A DNA stretch of 64,000 nt from Dictyostelium discoideum (taxonomy: Eukaryota): the NCBI GenBank assembly GCA_000004695.1, contig CM000153.2, positions 1,248,001 through 1,312,000 on the forward strand. Direction: 5' to 3'. Of this stretch, positions 5,445 through 40,945 are shown in pieces. Position numbers and translations under genes: made by a program. Numbering within the stretch: position 1 is the stretch's first letter; every line of letters starts with the position of its first letter. A model generated the notes under the pieces. It had not been told where the DNA came from and did not search any database. It saw only the letters and a program-made list of their open reading frames with translations.

Positions 5445-6007
5445 AATTATTAAATAAATATTTTTACATACCAATGAATATATAAAACTAAAGGTAAATC
5501 ATTTTCAGAATTTAAAATATTACGGTAGAATGGGATTCTATATGGTAAATTGTCATGTTGCCAGTCTGATAAATTTAAAGCCCAACTTTTAACATCATGT
5601 TCAGGTAAAAAGTTTGGATCCCAAAGATCGCCCAAAGTAACATTTGTACCAAATTCACCAAATTGTGGATTTGCATTAAAGAAAGTTTGCTCCAATTCAA
5701 TATCTGACTCTTCATCTTTTAATCCATAGATAAGTTTGATATCGACAATAATAAATTGAGGTGGTAATTTGACACCTGTTGTTAATGAATTGTTTACCAT
5801 ACATTTTATTAATTCTTCATATGCAAAGTAATTTTCACCATTAACTAATATTTTTGGCTCGTTACCTCTGAAGATATAATTTGTATTTCCATTTGATAAT
5901 GAAACTTGGTCAACTAAATGAACCTTTTTATATTCTAAATAATCACCATTAATTAAAACTATGGAAATTGATAATATTAAAATTATCAAATTTAAAATTA
6001 TTTTCAT
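5142..6007 (-). CDS. Signal-peptide protein with C-terminal HCx5R(T)G phosphatase P-loop (atypical PTP/DSP-like, Siw14/PFA-DSP flavour); complement(join(5142..5355,5472..6007))
   Basis: Track ORF 5450..6007 has an N-terminal hydrophobic leader (MKIILNLIILILSISIVLING). A GTATGT donor follows ...YIH at 5471-5466. After the AT-rich intron the acceptor ..aaatag precedes exon 2, giving ...IH|CECGCDRTGEVFASYAMKYLGYSFKEAMEWDYSIAGRRIMINHQFAAQWYCYYLQVAEGMTIDCSAPPLFE*. HCECGCDRTG fits HC-x5-R-(S/T)-G. Total 750 nt = 249 aa. Confidence 0.6.
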
Positions 6008-6072
6008 TTTTTTTTTTTTTTTTTTTTTTATAAAATATTTATTTGTATGTATCTAATAAAATATAAATAATT

Positions 6073-6086
6073 TATGTGTGGGTTGT
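6073..6086. promoter_or_regulatory. G-box-like TGTGTGGG motif about 70 bp upstream of the minus-strand phosphatase-like gene; second copy GTGTGGG at 6451-6457
   Basis: tttatgtgtgggttg and attagtgtgggtttt. They resemble G-rich GBF-type boxes described for Dictyostelium promoters. This is an inference only. Confidence 0.25.
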
Positions 6087-6495
6087 TTTTTTTTTTTTTT
6101 TTTTTCTCAATATACTTTTTTTTTTTTTTTTTTTTATTTTTTTCTTTTTTTTTATTTTTCTTTTAATTGGGGGTTAAAAAATAAAAAAAATAAAAAAATA
6201 AAAAAATAAAAAATAAAATAAAATTGAAATTGAATGATGGGATCCCAATAAAATAAAAAAAATAAAAAAATAAAAAAATAAAAAATAAAAATGAAAATAA
6301 AAATATCTAAATAAAATTTTTAGTGCAAAGATTAATCTTTGGTAATATAAAATTTATTTCTTTTTATATTATCATCTAGTGATAATGCCTCTTTGTTAAT
6401 TTTACTAAATTTGAAAAGTAATAAGAAAAAAAAAAAAAAAAAAAAAATTAGTGTGGGTTTTATTATTATTTATTATTTATTATTATTATTTATTA

Positions 6496-8100
6496 TTAAA
6501 ACACATACTCTAAGAATGTTTTCCCTCTATCTTCTAAAGATTTTGGAACATAGTCCTTTTCATCTTCATCATTCTTTGATTTTTTTAATCTTTCTTCCTC
6601 TCTTTGTAAACCACTTTGTTTCATTTCTTCAATTCTTTTTCTTTTTTCTTCTTCACTTAAACCACCATTTGATGGACGATTTTCATAATCATTTCTATCT
6701 CTTTTTTTATTTGGAGAATCATTATGATCTCTATCCCTGTATCTTGAGTCTTCTCTTTTTTTATCAATATGATGATCTTTTTCATCTCTTCTATTTCTAT
6801 CATAATATCTATCGGAATGGTCTCTATCTCTGTATCTATCATCTCTTCTCTCTTGATGATGATGATGATGATGATGATAGGTATCTCTATCTTTATCATC
6901 TCTTCTATCTCTATCATCTCTTCTGTCTCTATCCCTATCATAATGATGATCTCTATTTCTTTCTCTATCCCTATCATCTCTTCTTTCTCTTTCATCTCTT
7001 CTGTCTCTATCCCTATCTCTATCCCTATCTCTATCATCTCTTCTATCATAATGACTATCCCTATTTCTTTCTCTATCTCTATCTCTGTCATCTCTTCTTT
7101 CTCTTTCCTTTTCTTTTTCACTATCTCTATTTCTGTCATCCCTTCTATCGGAATGATCTCTATCCCTATATCTATCATCTCTTCTTTCATCATCAACACG
7201 ACCACCATTATCATTATAATTTTTAGGTTTTTCTGTGTGACCATTTGAGTTTTGAATTTTTTCATTATTTTTATCTTTATCTTTATATTTATCTTTTTTC
7301 TTTTCAGTTTTTTCTTTATCATTTTCACTATCATTATTATCATCATCATCATCATCATCATCGTCACTACTGTAATTTTTATCTTTTTTCTTTTCTTTCT
7401 TTTCTTTCTTTTCTTTCTTTTCTTTTTTCTCTTTTTTTTCATTTTTTTCTTTTTTTTTTAATTTCTTTAAAATTTTATCAGATTCTTTTTTCTCTTTTTC
7501 AAGTTTTTTCATTTGTAAGGGATTATTCATAATTTTATCAAGTGCTTCTTGTTTCTTTCTTTCAATTATCATTAATGGGTCTTCTCTAACGAGGCTTTTA
7601 ATATCTTGAGGGTTATCATTACTATTTGAATGAAGAAATAATGCACCAGGTAATTGAGCCGCTTTCTTTATAATATCTTCTGCTGAATCATCTATTTTCT
7701 TACCTAATAAATAATCATCAACTGTTTCTGTTTTTTTCATTGATAATTGAAATGCACCTTCATACATCCAATCCATTTTATTATCTGGTTTTCTATAAAA
7801 ATAAAAATAAAAATAAAAATAAAATAATAAAATATAATAAAATAAAAAAAAGAGAGTTGGTATTTTAATAGTTTTATTAATTTTAATTTTTTTTCAATTT
7901 ATTTCTCACACATACTTGCCTGAAGCTTCATTAAATTGATTTTTTAAGTCCCTTATTTGCTCTTCTTCTCTCATTTCTTTTTTTAATTGATCTATTTTCT
8001 TTTGTTCATCTTCTTTTTCTTTTTCAGCTTTCCATATCCTTTCTTGATTTTTCATAGTAGAGACATGCCAACTCTTTTTTGAAAGAAATGATTTACTCAT
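6496..8100 (-). CDS. cwc25: Pre-mRNA splicing factor Cwc25-like (Cir_N + CWC25 domains, RD/RE/RS-like tail); complement(join(6496..7792,7916..8100))
   Basis: Exon 1 (track ORF 7906..8100) MSKSFLSKKSWHVSTMKNQERIWKAEKEKEDEQKKIDQLKKEMREEE is the Cir_N motif (KSWHP..N.E.VWKAE). A GTATGT donor overlaps the last codon (ggcaa|gtatgt), and the acceptor ttttatag is at 7794-7793. Exon 2 ...KKPDNKMDWMYEGAFQL...DDYLLGKKID carries the CWC25 'DWMY...YLLG' motif. It continues with the (KEKKEKKEKK), D9, (RDRD/RDDR)n, H8 low-complexity tail. Sum 1482 nt = 493 aa. Confidence 0.6.
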
Positions 8101-36280: not shown

Positions 36281-39103
36281 ATGATATCATTAAAATTAAT
36301 AATTTTAAAATTTTTTATTTTAATTAAATTAATAAATTCATTACCATCAGAATTTAATGTTATTGGACCATTTCCAATTGGAGAAAGAGAGGAAGGATTA
36401 GATAGTTTAAAAGCATATGGTGGTATTTTTGAAATACCAATTGGAGATGATACAATGTATCCATCAGAATTGGGTACAAATGGAGTTGTTGGATGGGAAA
36501 AAGTACAATCAACAAGTGGTGGATATTTATCAATTGATTGGAGTGATATTGTTGATTGGTCATTTTTACAACAAACTTGGGGTTGGTCAATTTGGTTATG
36601 GTATGGATATGCCATTGGTTCATTCAATGTGGAAAATTCTGGTTCATACATTATCAATTGTTCAGGTACTAGACAATATTTCATTCAATCAACAACAACA
36701 ACAAACACCAACAATCAAATATTTGAATTCTCTGGTGATTTTTATGGATATGGTACAGGTCAACAATTAATTCACCTAAATCAATCAACAACTTATAATT
36801 TAATAGTTAGAATGCAAAGCTCAGTTAGATTATCACAATCACCTAATTCTCAATTTTCATGTTCTTTGACGCCAATTCAAAATAATCAATATATTACAGT
36901 TTTAAATTCTGAAACTTTAATTTCAGATTTAATAAATGGTGAATTAGCAACACCTTTTGCAACAATTACAATTTTTAATAATGGAATTTATAGTAATGAT
37001 AATAATGATAAAAATAATAATATTATTGATTTAATTAATGTTACAGTTAATAATAATACTCAATCAATAATTGATGTCAAATTATTAAATAATTCAAATT
37101 TAAATATATTAGCAGGTCAGAAAATGTCATTACCATTAGAGATTACAATTGGTTCACAAATTAATTGTCCATTTAATTTAACATTAAATATTGAATCAAA
37201 TGGAGAGATTATTGGTGAAACAGTAATTGAATTTAATTGTACAGAATGGGGTAATCCATATTTATATACATTTTTAGATTATGATAATACTGTTCAATAT
37301 GCAATTGCTATACCACCAACAGAATCATGTAGTGATAGTGAAGGTGAAACTATTTGTGGGGTAATGTTAGCAACACATGGTGCTGGTGTTGAAGCATCTT
37401 CACCATTTTGGATGAACGCTATACCACCACAACAATCATTATGGATTATTTTACCAACTGGAAGAAGATCATGGGGATATGATTGGGAATCATCTTCAAG
37501 ATTGAATGTAATGAGTTCAATTGACTACTTGGTAAACAATTTACCTGGTGTTCCAAATCAATTGAAATCACAATATCAAGTAAATGGTGAGAAAATCTTA
37601 TTCGTTGGTCATTCTTGTGGTGGTCATGGATGTGTTAGTCTTTTATCAAGATTTGGTGATATGGCAATTGGTGGAATGTGTGCTGCAGGTTTTGTTAAAC
37701 TTCAATTCTATGTTTTCTACAATACAAGACCTGGCTTCTCTTATATTGACCCTTCCCTACAGGGTTTATTAATGGCATCGATTGCAGAGAATGATAATGA
37801 TCTTTACACTTCAAATATTGTTGGTATACCATTGATGGTAAGGTATGGTGAAAATGATACCAATGTAAATCCTTGGCATAGTCGTAGAATTGCAAGAATG
37901 GTTGATGAACAATCCAATCAACTTTCATCAGTCACCATTAGTGAAGTACCAAACTCTGGACATTGGTTTGATGGCATATTGAATGACCAATATGTATTGA
38001 ATTGGTATAATCAATTGACAGAGAGTTCATTGTTTTCTCAACCACCAATACCAAAGGTGATAACAGTGACTAGTCATAATCCTTCATCATCAGGTTCAAG
38101 GGCAAATATTAAAATACTTCAAACTATAAACCCATCACGTGTTGCAAAGATTCAAATTGTTCAGATCAATAACGAACAAGGCGAGTTGGTTTGGATTTTA
38201 TCAACTCAAAATGTACGTAGATTTGGGTTTCAATCAACACCAATTCGTACCCAAGGTCTACCAATTAGTGTCACTATTGATGGTCAGCCATTTACAACTG
38301 AATTTTTACCAACAACTCATTTCGCAAGATTAGATAAATGGTTACCTGATTGGAATACAACCACCGATACAACTTGGACTCAAACTGAACGTTCACCATT
38401 AACCAGTGGTCCAATTCGTCAAATCTTTGAAAAACCATTTACAATTATTTATGGTACAAATTCAACAAATATTGATTTATTCCAATGGGGTTCAGTTTTT
38501 ATTTCAAACTTTTATAATACCTATGGACGTGGTTCACCAAATATTTTAGCAGATATTGATTTCGTTGAACCAGAGATTTGTTCCTCAAATGATAATTACA
38601 TTTTGTTGGGTAATAGTTTTCAAAATTTAGTTACCTCAAAATATCAATCATTATTACCAGTGGTTTTTAATTGGGATAACTCTTTTTCGGTGGGTCCATC
38701 CTCTCCATACTCTTATCCTGGTACTGGTATTTTATTTTTAGCTCCAAATCCATGTGGTCAAGGTTTAATTTTAGTAGTTGCTGGTTATGATGATCAAGGT
38801 TTTAATAATGCATTACATTCAATTCCACAACGTTCAGGTGTTTTAGTTCCTGATTTTATGGTAGTTGGTAATGATATTTGGAAAGGTAATTATTTATTTA
38901 TTTTAATTATTATTTTTATTTTTATTTTTTTTACTTTTAATTTAAAAACATACTAATCAATTATTTTTATTATTTTATTTTTTTTTATTTTTTTTATTTT
39001 TTTTTTAAAAAAAGGTGCTGGTGGTATCATTTCAACTGGCTTTTGGGATCCAAATTGGTTTGTTTCTTTAGATTCTTCTTATTTCGGTTTTACTCCATTT
39101 TAA
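36281..39103 (+). CDS. Large secreted alpha/beta-hydrolase-like protein (GHSxGG nucleophile motif); join(36281..38885,39015..39103)
   Basis: N-terminal signal peptide MISLKLIILKFFILIKLINSLP. Central ...GVMLATHGAGVEAS...KILFVGHSCGGHGCVSLLSRFGDMAIGGMCAAGFVK resembles GHSxGG esterase/lipase-type elbows. GTAATT donor at 38886 splits the G codon. A 128-nt AT-rich intron and acceptor aaaaaaag (39014) follow. The last exon is GAGGIISTGFWDPNWFVSLDSSYFGFTPF*. Confidence 0.5.
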
Positions 39104-39652
39104 AAAAAAAATAATAAATAAATTGTAAATTTTAAAATTAAAAATATCTAAATCAATTTATTTTATTTTTTTGTTTTATTTTATTTTATTTTATTTCATT
39201 TTTATTTTATTTTATTTATTTTATTTTTTTTTATTTTTTTTTTTTTTTATTTTTTTTTAGTTTTTTTTTTTTACATAAACAAAAAAAAAAAATAACTGTT
39301 TTTTCATTTCCATGATTCGATTTTTAAATTTAAATTTGGAACACTTTTTTTTTTAAAATTTTATTTACATTCGTTCCATTCGTCTTTTTGAAATAAAGAT
39401 ATTTTCAATGGAAGCAAAAACAAAAAAAAATAAAATAAAATAAAATAAAAACTTAAAAAAAAAATAAAACAAAAAAAAATAAAAATTAAAAAAAAAAAAA
39501 AATATAAATTAAAAAAAAAATCTTTTTTTTTTAATTTTTTTTAATTACTTTTCAGTTTCAAACTCATCGACCCCACTATTGTTTTTTTTATTTTTTTTAT
39601 ACTTTTTTCTGTTTTAGATATATAATTTTTTTTTTTCAGATATTTTAAAAAA

Positions 39653-40744
39653 ATGGTTGAAATAAAAGATAAAGAAATTAATAATAATAATAATTATAGT
39701 AAAAAAATTATATTAGCCGTTGGTGGTGTTACAGTTGGTAGTATCTTTGGATATGCATTACAAAAAGGTAATGTTTATTTACCAAGTGTAATTCAAGGAC
39801 AAATGAATTTTACCAATTTTACAATGTTAAAAATGTTTATGACAGCATCTTTAACATCATCATTGGCAATAACATTTTTAAAATCTCAAAAATTAATTGT
39901 ACTTGAAAAGTCTTCAACAATGTATAAAAGAAATATAATTGGTGGATTTATAATGGGATCTGGTATATCATTGACTGGTGCATGTCCAGGCACTGTTTTA
40001 GCTCAAATACCACAAATCAATGGTACTTTATGGACTTTATTGGGTGGTGTTGTTGGTGCAACTCTATTTGGTTTTGTCAATAGTTACATTTCAAAATTAT
40101 TACCATCAACTCAACCAACTTCAAAATCCTCAACCACTGTTTATGAGAAATTTAAGATTTCAATGTCAAAAGCAACAATACCATTCTCAATTATGATTGC
40201 ACTTGTACTCTATTTAATTGAATCTAAATTTCCATGGCAAGTTGATAGTGGTGTATCAAAGAGTATCTCAATATTTGGTTCTATCAGTGAGAGTAAAGTT
40301 TGGTCACCTTATGTTGCTGGTATCACTATTGGCTTATTACAAATCCCAAGTTTCTTGATTTCAAATACGGGTTTAGGTTGTAGTTCTGCATATGTTACAG
40401 TTGGCTCAAAAGTTTGTAATGCCGTTAGTTGTACCGTAGATTACTTTAAAAGTTTTAATACAACCGTTCGTTCAATTTATGGTCCACTATTAAATTTAGG
40501 TATCATTGGTGGTGCTTATTTGGCTTCTCGTTCAAATCCTGCTCCTTTAATTGAACAACTCAATAATCAATCAACTCTAAATCACTTTTTAGGTGGTTTT
40601 GTTTTATTATTTGGTGCTCGTCTTAATGGTGGATGTACTTCAAATGGTTTAACCTCGATGGGTAAATTAGAATTTAGTAGTTTCGTTACAATGGCCTCAA
40701 TGTTTGCTGGAGGTGTTTTAACCTCTTATTTTTTGAATAAATAA
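39653..40744 (+). CDS. YeeE/YedE (TsuA-like, Sulf_transp/DUF395) family polytopic membrane protein
   Basis: Track ORF 363 aa. Two internally repeated halves each carry the family's Gly-rich Cys motif: GGFIMGSGISLTGACPGTVLAQI and GGFVLLFGARLNGGCTSNGLTSMG. The protein is highly hydrophobic throughout. Codon usage is AT-rich host-like. Confidence 0.5.
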   Translation: MVEIKDKEINNNNNYSKKIILAVGGVTVGSIFGYALQKGNVYLPSVIQGQMNFTNFTMLKMFMTASLTSSLAITFLKSQKLIVLEKSSTMYKRNIIGGFIMGSGISLTGACPGTVLAQIPQINGTLWTLLGGVVGATLFGFVNSYISKLLPSTQPTSKSSTTVYEKFKISMSKATIPFSIMIALVLYLIESKFPWQVDSGVSKSISIFGSISESKVWSPYVAGITIGLLQIPSFLISNTGLGCSSAYVTVGSKVCNAVSCTVDYFKSFNTTVRSIYGPLLNLGIIGGAYLASRSNPAPLIEQLNNQSTLNHFLGGFVLLFGARLNGGCTSNGLTSMGKLEFSSFVTMASMFAGGVLTSYFLNK

Positions 40745-40795
40745 AAAAATAAAATAAAAAATAAAATAAAAAATAAAAAAATTAATTAATTAAAA

Positions 40796-40945
40796 AAAAT
40801 ATATTCTTTTAACAGATATTATTTAATACTCATAGATATCATATAAATAATTAAATAAAATAAAAAAATTAAAATAAATTTGATAATTAAAAAAAAAAAA
40901 TATATTAATAGATATTATTTAATACTCATAGATATAGGGATGATA
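40796..40945. repeat. Direct repeat (about 45 bp: ..atat[t/a]..agatattatttaatactcatagatat..) x2, 100 bp apart, just 3' of the YeeE-like gene
   Basis: 40797-40845 aaaaaatatattcttttaacagatattatttaatactcatagatatc. 40896-40945 aaaaaaaaaatatattaatagatattatttaatactcatagatatag. Confidence 0.8.

What the first reader, a model, noticed from the sequence alone, without database searches (positions are those of the whole stretch)
39653..40744. YeeE/YedE (TsuA-like) thiosulfate/sulfur-transporter family gene in an amoebozoan genome
The protein has the duplicated-half topology and the Gly-rich Cys motifs (LTGACPGT / LNGGCTSNG) of the Sulf_transp/DUF395 family. To my knowledge that family is overwhelmingly bacterial/archaeal. 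Codon usage and AT content are fully host-like, so if horizontally acquired it is ancient. It sits between a secreted hydrolase and LRR-receptor genes and is followed by a 45-bp direct repeat pair.
Basis: partly seen in the sequence, partly recalled or inferred. Interest (0 to 1): 0.5.

Follow-up and report, generated by a model that had tools for sequence, protein, structure and literature searches.

The report
Eukaryotic YeeE-family sulfur channel gene
This is the already catalogued but unstudied Dictyostelium discoideum gene DDB_G0283991, an ordinary vertically inherited member of a eukaryote-wide branch of the YeeE/YedE sulfur-transporter family, and it is not a true copy of the bacterial thiosulfate importer TsuA or a recent bacterial import.

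Summary
Window 39653-40744 (+) is one intact 363-codon ORF that matches Pfam PF04143 (Sulf_transp) end to end (E=5e-62). An AlphaFold model (pLDDT 89) matches only the YeeE/TsuA crystal structures in the PDB. Both Cys motifs are real.

The protein is 100% identical to D. discoideum DDB_G0283991 ("hypothetical protein").

- It is not a TsuA equivalog: about 50 bits against a cut-off of 645.
- The third TsuA cysteine, the loop Arg and the YeeD-docking residues are missing.
- The family is not rare in eukaryotes. Homologues occur across Amoebozoa, fungi, animals, Heterolobosea, labyrinthulids and foraminifera. Dictyostelid copies are monophyletic and syntenic.

The nearest prokaryotic relatives found are two-gene split pairs, mostly in Alphaproteobacteria. 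They are 35-47% identical and encoded in permuted order (C-half gene, then N-half gene). The clade shares its Cys motifs with the PmpAB/YedE1E2 sulfane-sulfur importers.

Most likely function (inferred): a two-cysteine relay channel for a reduced inorganic sulfur species, either sulfane sulfur or thiosulfate.

The downstream repeat is a D. discoideum-specific local duplication.

Interest is modest: a known family in an uncharacterised eukaryotic branch.

The parts
39653..40744 (+). Complete single-exon CDS (363 aa plus TAA) of D. discoideum DDB_G0283991, a YeeE/YedE-family (PF04143) membrane protein.
   Evidence: AF2 model pLDDT 88.8. Foldseek to 6leo: E=7.5e-9, TM 0.69/0.76.
39653..39712 (+). 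Non-conserved N-terminal tail (residues 1-20, Asn-rich). It has no presequence-like character.
   Evidence: pLDDT is below 50 for residues 1-10. The tail is not aligned in homologues. It contains acidic residues.
39713..40102 (+). N-terminal half (residues 21-150; TM1-TM4 plus two short re-entrant helices). It is homologous to bacterial split gene g2 and to PmpB/YedE2.
   Evidence: 35-47% identity to g2.
39776..39778 (+). Tyr42 codon. This is the position of the third, cytoplasmic, YeeD-facing cysteine of TsuA (St C22/Ec C25). It is not a cysteine here.
   Evidence: The eukaryotic column holds Y/F/N/A, while TsuA and the other full-length bacterial proteins have C.
39971..39994 (+). Motif LTGACPGT (residues 107-114) with invariant Cys111 (39983-39985). 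It is equivalent to St C91/Ec C94 and to the essential Cys of PmpB/YedE2.
   Evidence: PMC11582611; PMC10812762.
40163..40228 (+). Central transmembrane helix (residues 171-192, the H7 equivalent) ending in the conserved E..(F/R)PW motif. The helix and motif are present at the C-terminus of bacterial g2; the helix is not covered by the ~141-146-aa Sphingobium YedE2 sequences and is reported absent from PmpAB.
   Evidence: Helix 171-192. The motif appears in the consensus and in the g2 representative. PMC11582611 reports that PmpAB lack H7.
40289..40741 (+). C-terminal half (residues 213-363; TM6-TM9 plus two short helices). It is homologous to bacterial split gene g1 and to PmpA/YedE1.
   Evidence: 34-42% identity to g1.
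40379..40381 (+). Cys243 codon in the LC-loop motif GLGCSS. This is an extra cysteine found in only some Eumycetozoa (the D. discoideum group, the close D. purpureum orthologue, Cavenderia and Physarum). Its role is unknown.
40622..40648 (+). Motif LNGGCTSNG (residues 324-332) with invariant Cys328 (40634-40636), equivalent to St C293/Ec C302 and to the essential Cys of PmpA/YedE1. It is preceded by invariant Arg323. The D. discoideum group has NG where other members have GHG, which makes the motif one residue shorter.
40792..40839 (+). Copy 1 of the 3'-intergenic direct repeat (exact 26-nt core 40814-40839).
40889..40935 (+). Copy 2 of the direct repeat (exact 26-nt core 40910-40935), 96 nt downstream of copy 1. 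It is absent from the orthologous spacers of D. citrinum and D. firmibasis.

Best explanation
The ORF is D. discoideum DDB_G0283991. It encodes a single-chain membrane protein of nine transmembrane helices with the hourglass YeeE/YedE fold.

**Lineage.** It belongs to a eukaryote-wide subfamily that was inherited vertically at least within Eumycetozoa. The nearest prokaryotic relatives found are split two-gene pairs, mainly alphaproteobacterial. In those pairs gene 1 is the C-half and gene 2 is the N-half plus the central helix. The clade shares Cys-motif signatures with the PmpAB/YedE1E2 sulfane-sulfur importers. It is a distant paralogue of TsuA, not an orthologue.

**Mechanism (inferred).** A reduced inorganic sulfur species passes the thin central constriction by being handed between the two invariant loop cysteines, Cys328 and then Cys111. 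It is released to a soluble thiol acceptor such as glutathione. No third cysteine and no dedicated TusA/YeeD partner are involved.

**Substrate (my estimate).** Sulfane sulfur/polysulfide about 0.4, thiosulfate about 0.35, anything else about 0.25.

**What is shown and what is inferred.** Shown here: gene integrity, family, fold, conserved residues, phyletic spread and the split bacterial relatives. Inferred: substrate, direction of transport, membrane location and evolutionary polarity.
For: **Family and fold**
- PF04143: E=5.4e-62 over the full profile.
- AF2 model: pLDDT 88.8, pTM 0.88, with a 13-helix pattern.
- Foldseek finds only YeeE/TsuA entries in the PDB (6leo, 6lep, 8k1r, 8j4c): probability 1.0, TM 0.68-0.77. 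The next hit has E>0.02.

**Catalytic residues**
- Cys111 and Cys328 are invariant in 18 diverse eukaryotic homologues.
- They align with Ec C94 and C302. Those cysteines are essential in TsuA (PMC7449682), and the equivalent ones are essential in YedE1E2 (PMC10812762).

**Vertical inheritance**
- Orthologues occur in nine dictyostelid species and in Physarum, and in Phalansterium.
- Bootstrap support: Dictyostelia 100%, Amoebozoa 81%.
- The gene order purC/E, hydrolase, Sulf_transp, ComC-like is conserved in D. citrinum and D. firmibasis.
- GC3 is host-like.

**Eukaryote-wide spread**
- Searches find fungi, molluscs, rotifers, echinoderms, a bryozoan, Heterolobosea, labyrinthulids and foraminifera.

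**Bacterial relatives**
- All 80 loci retrieved carry two adjacent ORFs.
- They match Pfam positions 171-309 and then 1-154.
- They are 35-47% identical to the Dictyostelium halves, 95-122 bits, against 39-48 bits for E. coli TsuA halves.
- About 64 of the 80 loci are Alphaproteobacteria, by my count of the record titles.

**Trees**
- Eukaryotic N-halves plus g2: 94% bootstrap. Eukaryotic C-halves plus g1: 75%.
- [Eukaryotes + split pairs + YedE2/1] against [TsuA + another full-length bacterial type]: 100%.

**Shared motifs**
- C-P-G and R-x4-C-T-S-G-H-G are shared with YedE2 and YedE1 and are absent from TsuA.
Against: - No experiment exists for any eukaryotic member, and no paper mentions this gene.
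- Pairwise BLAST scores to classical short YedE1/YedE2 (23-27 bits) are lower than to TsuA halves (39-48 bits). The PmpAB affinity therefore rests on neighbour-joining trees with few outgroups and on two short motifs.
- Gene-neighbourhood support for a role in persulfide metabolism is weak.
  - The 80 split pairs have no conserved neighbours.
  - Only one of five distinct fungal neighbourhoods examined (L002 and L003 carry the same protein and the same neighbours) has an adjacent persulfide-dioxygenase-like gene.
- The sulfane-sulfur function of YedE1E2 itself rests on one heterologous over-expression study (PMC10812762).
- The D. discoideum group has altered the otherwise conserved CTSGHG motif to CTS-NG.
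- The bacterial scan used a single peptide pattern. Both the alphaproteobacterial bias and the apparent absence of fused bacterial relatives depend on that pattern.
Confidence: 0.7

Rival explanations
1. It is a genuine TsuA-type thiosulfate importer that feeds thiosulfate into cysteine synthesis.
For: - It has the same fold as StYeeE, and the two indispensable TsuA cysteines are conserved.
- The TsuA NCBIfam models are its best NCBIfam hits.
- NCBI names an echinoderm homologue 'TsuA-like'.
- StYeeE C22A still complements growth (PMC7449682), so the missing third cysteine is not decisive on its own.
Against: - Scores of 50 and 46 bits fall far below the cut-offs of 645 and 400.
- The C22 equivalent is Tyr.
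- The YeeD-docking residues R28, R98 and E101 are Q, Q and Q here, and the R98 equivalent is an invariant Gln across eukaryotes.
- The LC-loop Arg segment is deleted.
- YeeD is reported to be essential for TsuA-dependent growth on thiosulfate (PMC11073785), and no TusA-like ORF lies in the window.
- The trees separate the clade from TsuA.
Confidence: 0.3
2. It is a relatively recent horizontal acquisition from bacteria into the Dictyostelium or amoebozoan lineage.
For: - The family is numerically dominated by prokaryotes (established knowledge; PMC11582611 treats only Bacteria and Archaea).
- Bacterial split pairs are as similar to the amoebozoan proteins (mean tree distance 0.57-0.61) as other eukaryotes are (0.60-0.62).
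- Amoeba-associated bacteria carry the pair: Candidatus Odyssella (L040) and a Chlamydiia MAG (L066).
- Eukaryote monophyly is not recovered.
Against: - Orthologues occur in all sampled dictyostelid genera, in Physarum and in Phalansterium. Support is Dictyostelia 100% and Amoebozoa 81%.
- Synteny is conserved among three Dictyostelium species.
- GC3 is host-like.
- Fused homologues are present in at least five eukaryotic supergroups.
- Every bacterial relative found is split and in permuted order, unlike the fused eukaryotic gene.
Confidence: 0.07
3. It transports a selenium species, like YedE/FdhT, and serves the Dictyostelium selenoprotein machinery.
For: - There is a weak hit to NF033796 selen_YedE_FdhT (34.6 bits).
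- From my own knowledge, D. discoideum uses selenocysteine. Sulfur and selenium chemistry overlap.
Against: - The score is ten-fold below the cut-off of 350.
- E. coli YedE could not be aligned in register with the family alignment.
- Homologues are abundant in Pezizomycotina fungi, which from my own knowledge lack selenoproteins. The phyletic pattern therefore does not follow selenium use.
Confidence: 0.05

Closest known systems
TsuA/YeeE thiosulfate transporter (E. coli, Spirochaeta thermophila; PDB 6LEO, 8K1R)
   Same: - Same Pfam family and same fold: TM 0.69-0.77, the only PDB match.
- Single chain with N-half, central helix and C-half.
- The two indispensable loop cysteines (St C91, C293) are conserved.
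   Different: - About 19-25% identity.
- Fails the NCBIfam TsuA cut-offs by more than ten-fold.
- Lacks the third cysteine (Tyr42), the LC-loop Arg and the YeeD-docking residues.
- No YeeD/TsuB partner is adjacent.
- Falls in a separate clade in the trees.
PmpAB / YedE1E2 half-size heterodimers (Serratia; Cupriavidus pinatubonensis; S. meliloti), a reported zero-valent sulfur importer
   Same: - One essential cysteine per half, at the same positions.
- Shared motif signatures: C-P-G in the N-type half and R-x4-C-T-S-G-H-G in the C-type half.
- Groups with the eukaryotic clade against TsuA in the concatenated tree (100%). YedE1 joins the C-half clade at 74%.
   Different: - PmpAB are two separate proteins of about 140 aa that lack the central helix (PMC11582611), whereas the Dictyostelium protein is fused and has that helix.
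- Pairwise similarity is very low: 23-27 bits.
- The PF20398 (DUF6691) hit is below threshold: 18.5 bits against 27.
- PmpAB usually sit in BigR/ArsR-PDO operons. No such context exists here.
Uncharacterised split YeeE-like pairs, mainly of Alphaproteobacteria (Xanthobacter, Tepidicaulis, Ferrovibrio, Parvibaculaceae, Pseudovibrio and others; loci L005-L084)
   Same: - The closest prokaryotic sequences found: 35-47% identity over both halves, including the central helix and the E..PW motif.
- The same Cys motifs, GACPGTVLAQ and GARxxxGCTSGHG.
   Different: - Encoded as two genes in permuted order: about 172 aa for the C-half, then about 205 aa for the N-half plus central helix.
- No experimental data exist, and there is no conserved gene neighbourhood.
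SoxT1A/SoxT1B of Hyphomicrobium denitrificans (YeeE-like sulfane-sulfur importer and signal transducer)
   Same: Full-length YeeE-family proteins proposed to move sulfane sulfur rather than thiosulfate (PMC11582611, PMC12423496). They show that the fold is not restricted to thiosulfate.
   Different: SoxT proteins keep three conserved cysteines and are tied to sox/shdr gene clusters. They were not compared by sequence here.

Membership tests
Pfam PF04143 Sulf_transp (YeeE/YedE, DUF395) | Score above the curated gathering threshold across the domain. | tested here: met
   210.5 bits against a cut-off of 27, E=5.4e-62, profile positions 1-309 of 310.
Pfam PF04143 Sulf_transp (YeeE/YedE, DUF395) | YeeE hourglass fold: 9 TM helices, 4 short helices, pseudo-symmetric halves. 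| tested here: met
   The AF2 model (pLDDT 88.8) has the matching helix pattern. Foldseek finds only YeeE structures, TM 0.68-0.77.
TsuA/YeeE thiosulfate transporter (NCBIfam NF041049, NF052577) | Score above the curated equivalog or exception cut-off. | tested here: not met
   50.2 bits against 645, and 46.5 bits against 400.
TsuA/YeeE thiosulfate transporter | Three conserved loop cysteines (St C22, C91, C293; Ec C25, C94, C302). | tested here: not met
   C91 maps to C111 and C293 maps to C328, both conserved. C22 maps to Tyr42 and is never Cys in eukaryotic homologues.
TsuA/YeeE thiosulfate transporter | Conserved Arg in the LC loop at the outer, positively charged thiosulfate site (St R215). 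| tested here: not met
   The E. coli LC-loop Arg (R223 in 'ATGRMFGLG') falls in a 6-residue segment that is deleted in all eukaryotic sequences in the MAFFT alignment. The alignment of this loop is less certain than that of the Cys motifs.
TsuA/YeeE thiosulfate transporter | Partnership with a TusA-like YeeD/TsuB: adjacent gene or fusion, plus docking residues R28, R98, E101, E261. | tested here: not met
   - No TusA-like ORF lies in the 64-kb window.
- The R28, R98 and E101 equivalents are Q48, Q118 (invariant Gln in eukaryotes) and Q121.
- The rest of the genome could not be searched.
TsuA/YeeE thiosulfate transporter | Thiosulfate transport activity. | not testable with these tools
   Requires complementation or a proteoliposome assay.
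PmpAB / YedE1E2 sulfane-sulfur importer | Two half-size (~130-145 aa, 4-TM) subunits encoded by adjacent genes. | tested here: not met
   The Dictyostelium protein is one 363-aa chain with a central helix.
PmpAB / YedE1E2 sulfane-sulfur importer | Exactly one conserved, essential cysteine per half, at the C91 and C293 positions. | tested here: met
   C111 and C328 are the only invariant cysteines. Their equivalence to the PmpB and PmpA cysteines follows PMC11582611.
PmpAB / YedE1E2 sulfane-sulfur importer | Closer sequence relationship to PmpAB than to other YeeE subfamilies. | tested here: inconclusive
   - For: NJ trees (100% and 74%) and shared motifs.
- Against: BLAST gives 23-27 bits, compared with 39-48 bits to TsuA halves.
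- PF20398 is below threshold.
YedE/FdhT selenium-metabolism membrane protein (NF033796, TIGR04112) | Score above the curated cut-off. | tested here: not met
   34.6 bits against 350.

The most novel reading that the evidence does not exclude
The fused eukaryotic YeeE-like family, including this Dictyostelium gene, may descend from the two-gene split pair of an alphaproteobacterium, possibly the mitochondrial ancestor. The origin would be a permuting fusion of g2 and then g1. It would have been present in early eukaryotes and then lost many times. On this reading it is the still-unidentified eukaryotic membrane conduit for sulfane sulfur or thiosulfate in sulfide detoxification. Dictyostelium would be a genetically tractable system in which to define it.
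Probability: 0.2. Interest if true: 0.55.

Novelty: new member of a known kind. Interest (0 to 1): 0.3.

Why it matters
No eukaryotic member of the YeeE/YedE family has been characterised, yet the family is present in many protists, fungi and marine invertebrates. Several of these, as far as I know, live in sulfidic habitats, for example the foraminifera Nonionella and Bolivina. How eukaryotic cells move thiosulfate, persulfide or polysulfide across membranes is poorly defined. A single-copy, intron-less gene in a haploid organism that is easy to knock out would be a convenient entry point. The split, order-permuted bacterial relatives also add a third architecture to the YeeE family, alongside fused TsuA/SoxT and the short PmpAB pairs. 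That bears on how the fold evolved. None of this is surprising to a specialist. The gene and its domain are already in public databases.

Tried and rejected
1. **Conserved neighbours of the 80 bacterial split pairs.** I clustered all ORFs across the loci. No family other than the pair itself was present in more than 10 of 80 loci, and one of those was another full-length YeeE-like gene. There is no guilt-by-association signal.
2. **Fungal clustering with persulfide dioxygenase.** Contig L004 has a type-II PDO-like MBL gene divergent from the Sulf_transp gene. It was absent in Aspergillus, Capronia, Umbelopsis and a second fungal contig type. I treat it as anecdotal.
3. **TusA/YeeD partner in the window.** tblastn with E. 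coli TsuB and YedF gave only 26-29-aa chance matches without a CPxP motif.
4. **Fused accessory domains.** The N-terminal extensions of 100-200 aa in animal, labyrinthulid and foraminiferal homologues have no Pfam domain.
5. **Plasmid collection.** The Dictyostelium protein hits only TsuA C-halves weakly. The split g2 protein hits nothing.
6. **Literature.** The gene identifier appears in no indexed paper, nor in the supplements of the Dictyostelium sulfur paper PMC7969356.
7. **Eukaryote monophyly or an alphaproteobacterial sister relationship.** The NJ backbone support is too low (0-55%) to decide.
8. **E. coli YedE as an outgroup.** It did not align in register and was dropped.
9. **Mitochondrial presequence.** The N-termini are heterogeneous, mostly short and partly acidic. 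No localisation claim is made.
10. **Function for the downstream repeat.** It is absent from all other loci, including the orthologous spacers.
Full report
**1. The observation**

The window is extremely AT-rich (GC 0.229). Positions 39653-40744 (+) hold one uninterrupted ORF of 363 codons, from ATG to TAA.

- Its translation is 100% identical over its whole length to the annotated D. discoideum AX4 protein DDB_G0283991, named 'hypothetical protein' (P0001).
- The window is therefore D. discoideum nuclear DNA, and the ORF equals the public gene model.
- The protein matches Pfam PF04143 (Sulf_transp) at E=5.4e-62, 210.5 bits against a gathering cut-off of 27, across profile positions 1-309 of 310.
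LTGACPGT is residues 107-114 and LNGGCTSNG is residues 324-332.

An AlphaFold2 model built on an 18-sequence eukaryotic alignment is confident (mean pLDDT 88.8, pTM 0.88). It shows the alternation of long and short helices that is typical of YeeE. A Foldseek search of the PDB returns only the Spirochaeta thermophila YeeE/TsuA entries (6leo, 6lep, 8k1r, 8j4c) at probability 1.0 and TM 0.68-0.77. The next match has E>0.02.

**2. Context in the window**

- Upstream lie a PP2C gene, a purC/E-type gene (AIRC plus ATP-grasp) and an ORF with a weak Peptidase_S9 hit.
- Downstream lie TIG/EGF/ComC_SSD genes. Their orthologues carry an LRR_ComC domain.
- None of these is related to sulfur metabolism.
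- tblastn with E. coli TsuB and YedF finds no TusA-like ORF in the 64 kb, and there is no second Sulf_transp copy.
- GC (0.309) and GC3 (0.157) are in the range of the neighbouring genes. The RSCU correlation with the neighbours is lower (0.80, against 0.91-0.97), and I did not follow this up.

The downstream direct repeat is real. It has a 26-nt exact core at 40814-40839 and 40910-40935, where none is expected by chance. It reaches about 45 nt only across an indel. It is absent from the orthologous spacers of D. citrinum and D. firmibasis, which are shorter. It is therefore a species-specific local duplication in an AT-rich spacer, with no sign of function.

**3. It is not a TsuA equivalog**

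The NCBIfam models for TsuA score 50.2 and 46.5 bits against cut-offs of 645 and 400. The YedE/FdhT model scores 34.6 bits against 350.

The features that define TsuA come from PMC7449682 and PMC11073785:
- Three loop cysteines: St C293 (outer), C91 (central) and C22 (cytoplasmic, facing YeeD Cys17).
- A conserved Arg in the LC loop.
- YeeD-docking residues R28, R98, E101 and E261.

In a MAFFT alignment with E. coli TsuA, and in the HMMER alignment to 6leo, the mapping is:

| TsuA residue | Dictyostelium residue | Pattern in eukaryotes |
|---|---|---|
| St C91 / Ec C94 | Cys111 | invariant Cys |
| St C293 / Ec C302 | Cys328 | invariant Cys |
| St C22 / Ec C25 | Tyr42 | Y/F/N/A, never Cys |
| St R98 / Ec R101 | Gln118 | invariant Gln |
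| St R28 / Ec R31 | Gln48 | variable |
| St E101 / Ec E104 | Gln121 | variable |

The E. coli LC-loop Arg is R223 in my numbering, although the paper prints R233. It sits in a six-residue segment that is missing from every eukaryotic sequence. Family membership is therefore met, and TsuA subfamily membership is not.

**4. It is not a eukaryotic rarity**

- The word-indexed search of 5.8 billion proteins gave 252 hits. Every named protein among the best 120 is eukaryotic. They comprise:
  - nine dictyostelid species (93% down to 47% identity) and Physarum;
  - the mollusc Lymnaea and the rotifer Adineta;
  - the labyrinthulid Hondaea and the heterolobosean Willaertia;
  - several chytrids, Umbelopsis and many Pezizomycotina.
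- Unnamed hits on long contigs also look eukaryotic, with sparse gene calls and Pkinase, HET, Anp1 and ferric-reductase neighbours.
- The exhaustive phmmer scan of 1.84 billion cluster representatives found 1554 proteins at E<=1e-3 and 134 at E<=1e-30. The best 150 are all fused, full-length-type proteins.
- Of 20 that I looked up, every one with a name was eukaryotic. They comprise:
  - a second, divergent D. purpureum paralogue, and Phalansterium;
  - a chytrid with a tandem double domain;
  - the foraminifera Elphidium, Nonionella and Bolivina;
  - Aplanochytrium and a second Hondaea copy;
  - the echinoderms Amphiura and Holothuria, and the bryozoan Watersipora.
- NCBI already labels the Amphiura protein 'thiosulfate transporter TsuA-like'.
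- The abstract of PMC11073785 states that YeeE-like proteins occur in eukaryotes.
- In neighbour-joining trees Dictyostelia are monophyletic (100%), and Amoebozoa including Physarum get 81%.
- The local gene order is conserved in D. citrinum and D. firmibasis.

A recent transfer into Dictyostelium is therefore very unlikely.

**5. The nearest prokaryotic relatives are split and permuted**

I scanned one genome per GTDB species with the conserved N-half peptide pattern [LVI][TSA]G[AS]CPGTV[LF]. The scan gave 174 relatives, of which the best 80 were fetched.

- By my count of the record titles, about 64 of the 80 are Alphaproteobacteria. These include Xanthobacter, Tepidicaulis, Ferrovibrio, Parvibaculaceae, Rhodospirillales, Pseudovibrio, Elioraea and Magnetospirillum.
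- The rest are Beta- and Gammaproteobacteria, Desulfobacterota, one Brocadiia MAG and one Chlamydiia MAG.
- In all 80 loci the homologue is two adjacent same-strand ORFs:
  - an upstream gene of about 172 aa that matches Dictyostelium residues ~213-363 and Pfam positions 171-309;
  - a downstream gene of about 205 aa that matches residues ~25-200 and Pfam positions 1-154.
- The downstream gene includes the central helix and its E..(R/F)PW motif.
- Identity to the Dictyostelium halves is 35-47% (95-122 bits). The E. coli TsuA halves give 22-25% (39-48 bits).
- No gene family other than the pair itself recurs in more than 10 of the 80 neighbourhoods.

The same order, C-type gene and then N-type gene, is seen in the classical short pairs. 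In two Sphingobium plasmid operons the order is ArsR, MBL-fold persulfide-dioxygenase-like gene, YedE1, DUF6691/YedE2, a sulfurtransferase-oxidoreductase and TauE. PMC11582611 independently aligns PmpB to the N-half (Cys = St C91) and PmpA to the C-half (Cys = St C293). It also notes that PmpAB lack the central helix.

The family therefore has three architectures:
- short split pairs;
- long split pairs that include the central helix;
- fused proteins.

**6. Phylogenetic placement**

In an NJ tree of separate halves (111 columns, 100 bootstraps):
- Eukaryotic N-halves group with g2 at 94%.
- Eukaryotic C-halves group with g1 at 75%, and YedE1 joins that group at 74%.
- The bacterial split genes are monophyletic (95% and 89%).
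- Eukaryote monophyly is not recovered.

In a concatenated tree (341 columns):
- The partition [eukaryotes + split pairs + YedE2/1] against [E. coli TsuA + another full-length bacterial YeeE-like type] gets 100%.
- The backbone inside the first group is weak (0-55%).
- The Dikarya/Mucoromycota group (97%) is pulled towards the YedE pair (74%).

Two motif-level characters agree with the tree:
- Cys-Pro-Gly in the N-type half.
- Arg-x4-Cys-Thr-Ser-Gly-His-Gly in the C-type half.

Both are shared by YedE2/YedE1, the long split pairs and the eukaryotes. TsuA has GGCA(T/S)G and GASIAGGCSIGNG instead.

Against this, pairwise BLAST scores to the short YedE proteins are lower than to TsuA. I conclude that the Dictyostelium gene belongs to a distinct clade made of eukaryotes and long split pairs, which is clearly not TsuA. 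Its affinity to PmpAB is likely but not secure. The polarity of fusion versus fission, and the ultimate origin (endosymbiotic, other transfer, or ancestral), are unresolved.

**7. Mechanism**

Shown:
- The YeeE fold.
- Two invariant cysteines at the tips of the LB and LD loops. These are exactly the two that cannot be replaced in StYeeE (PMC7449682) and that are essential in YedE1E2 (PMC10812762).
- An invariant Arg323 five residues before Cys328.
- No third cysteine and no YeeD-docking surface.

Inferred:
- The protein conducts a reduced inorganic sulfur species through the thin centre of the hourglass by successive interaction with Cys328 and Cys111.
- It hands the species to a diffusible thiol, such as glutathione, rather than to a dedicated TusA-type partner.

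The characterised relatives import thiosulfate (TsuA) or sulfane sulfur (YedE1E2, SoxT1A; PMC10812762, PMC11582611). I rate sulfane sulfur/polysulfide slightly above thiosulfate. Direction of transport and membrane location are unknown. The N-termini of homologues are heterogeneous and show no consistent presequence. Extensions in animal homologues carry no recognisable domain.

Lineage-specific details of unknown meaning:
- The D. discoideum/citrinum/firmibasis group has CTS-NG instead of CTSGHG.
- Several Eumycetozoa carry an extra Cys243 in the LC loop.

**8. Verdict**

The finding is a correct domain call on a known but uncharacterised gene. The reading as bacterial-type TsuA and possible horizontal transfer is only partly supported. 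The gene is ordinary for Dictyostelium and for many other eukaryotes.

What is mildly new here:
- The whole eukaryotic branch lacks the TsuA-specific features.
- Its closest bacterial relatives are order-permuted two-gene pairs, mostly alphaproteobacterial. I found no description of these in the papers I read.

Interest is modest (0.3). The classification is a new member of a known kind.

Noticed in passing
L005-L084 (for example L006 4983-5540 and 5553-6131; L019 4986-5501 and 5514-6131): All 80 closest bacterial relatives encode the YeeE-like protein as two adjacent genes in permuted order: the C-half first, then the N-half plus central helix. This long split architecture differs from both fused TsuA/SoxT and the short PmpAB pairs. 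It has no conserved gene neighbourhood.
   Followed up: yes
L004 4272-5183 (-), next to the Sulf_transp gene at 6001-7011 (+): On a fungal metagenome contig, a 303-aa MBL-fold gene lies divergent to the Sulf_transp gene. It is 44-48% identical to proteobacterial plasmid genes annotated 'MBL fold metallo-hydrolase'. Its best PDB matches are 9g8t, 4ysk/4ysl and 4efz, which from memory are type-II persulfide dioxygenases. This echoes bacterial blh-yedE1E2 operons. It was not seen in four other fungal neighbourhoods (L002/L003, L089, L090, L091).
   Followed up: partly
window 40814-40839 and 40910-40935: A 26-nt exact direct repeat lies 96 nt apart in the 3' spacer. It is absent from the orthologous, shorter spacers of D. 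citrinum (L092) and D. firmibasis (L093), so it is a D. discoideum-specific local duplication.
   Followed up: yes
window 40634-40648 (residues 328-332); P0002, P0003: D. discoideum, D. citrinum and D. firmibasis share CTS-NG, one residue shorter, where most other members (eukaryotic homologues, the bacterial split pairs and YedE1) have CTSGHG. This may be a lineage-specific change in the substrate pathway.
   Followed up: partly
P0121 (D. purpureum DICPUDRAFT_158192): D. purpureum has a second, divergent paralogue: 345 aa, 41% identical to the D. discoideum protein, with motifs GACPGIALPQ and DGCTSGS. No D. discoideum counterpart appeared in the searches.
   Followed up: no
P0122 (Phlyctochytrium, 689 aa); P0152, P0154, P0166, P0241, P0258 (echinoderms, a bryozoan, unnamed): A chytrid protein carries two tandem Sulf_transp domains. 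Animal and some protist homologues have N-terminal extensions of 100-200 aa with no Pfam domain.
   Followed up: partly
L040 (Candidatus Odyssella MAG) and L066 (Chlamydiia MAG): MAGs assigned to lineages that I recall as amoeba-associated (Candidatus Odyssella, Chlamydiia) carry the split pair. The Chlamydiia pair branches at the base of the bacterial split clade in the NJ trees. This could bear on any transfer between amoebae and bacteria.
   Followed up: no
window 38880-39105: The upstream 891-aa ORF (weak Peptidase_S9 hit) ends in a hydrophobic, low-complexity tail. A short in-frame coding-like stretch follows at about 39015-39103 (…GAGGIISTGFWDPNWF…). This suggests a 3' intron and a final exon. 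The D. citrinum orthologue is called at 900 aa.
   Followed up: no
window 39653-40744 compared with six neighbouring ORFs: The codon-usage (RSCU) correlation with neighbouring genes is 0.80, against 0.91-0.97 among the neighbours themselves, even though GC3 is the same. This may reflect expression-linked codon bias or the amino-acid composition of a membrane protein.
   Followed up: no
P0136, P0255, P0125 (Nonionella stella, Bolivina argentea, Elphidium margaritaceum): Benthic foraminifera carry fused homologues. As far as I know, these taxa live in low-oxygen, sulfidic sediments. That ecological association would fit a role in handling reduced sulfur.
   Followed up: no
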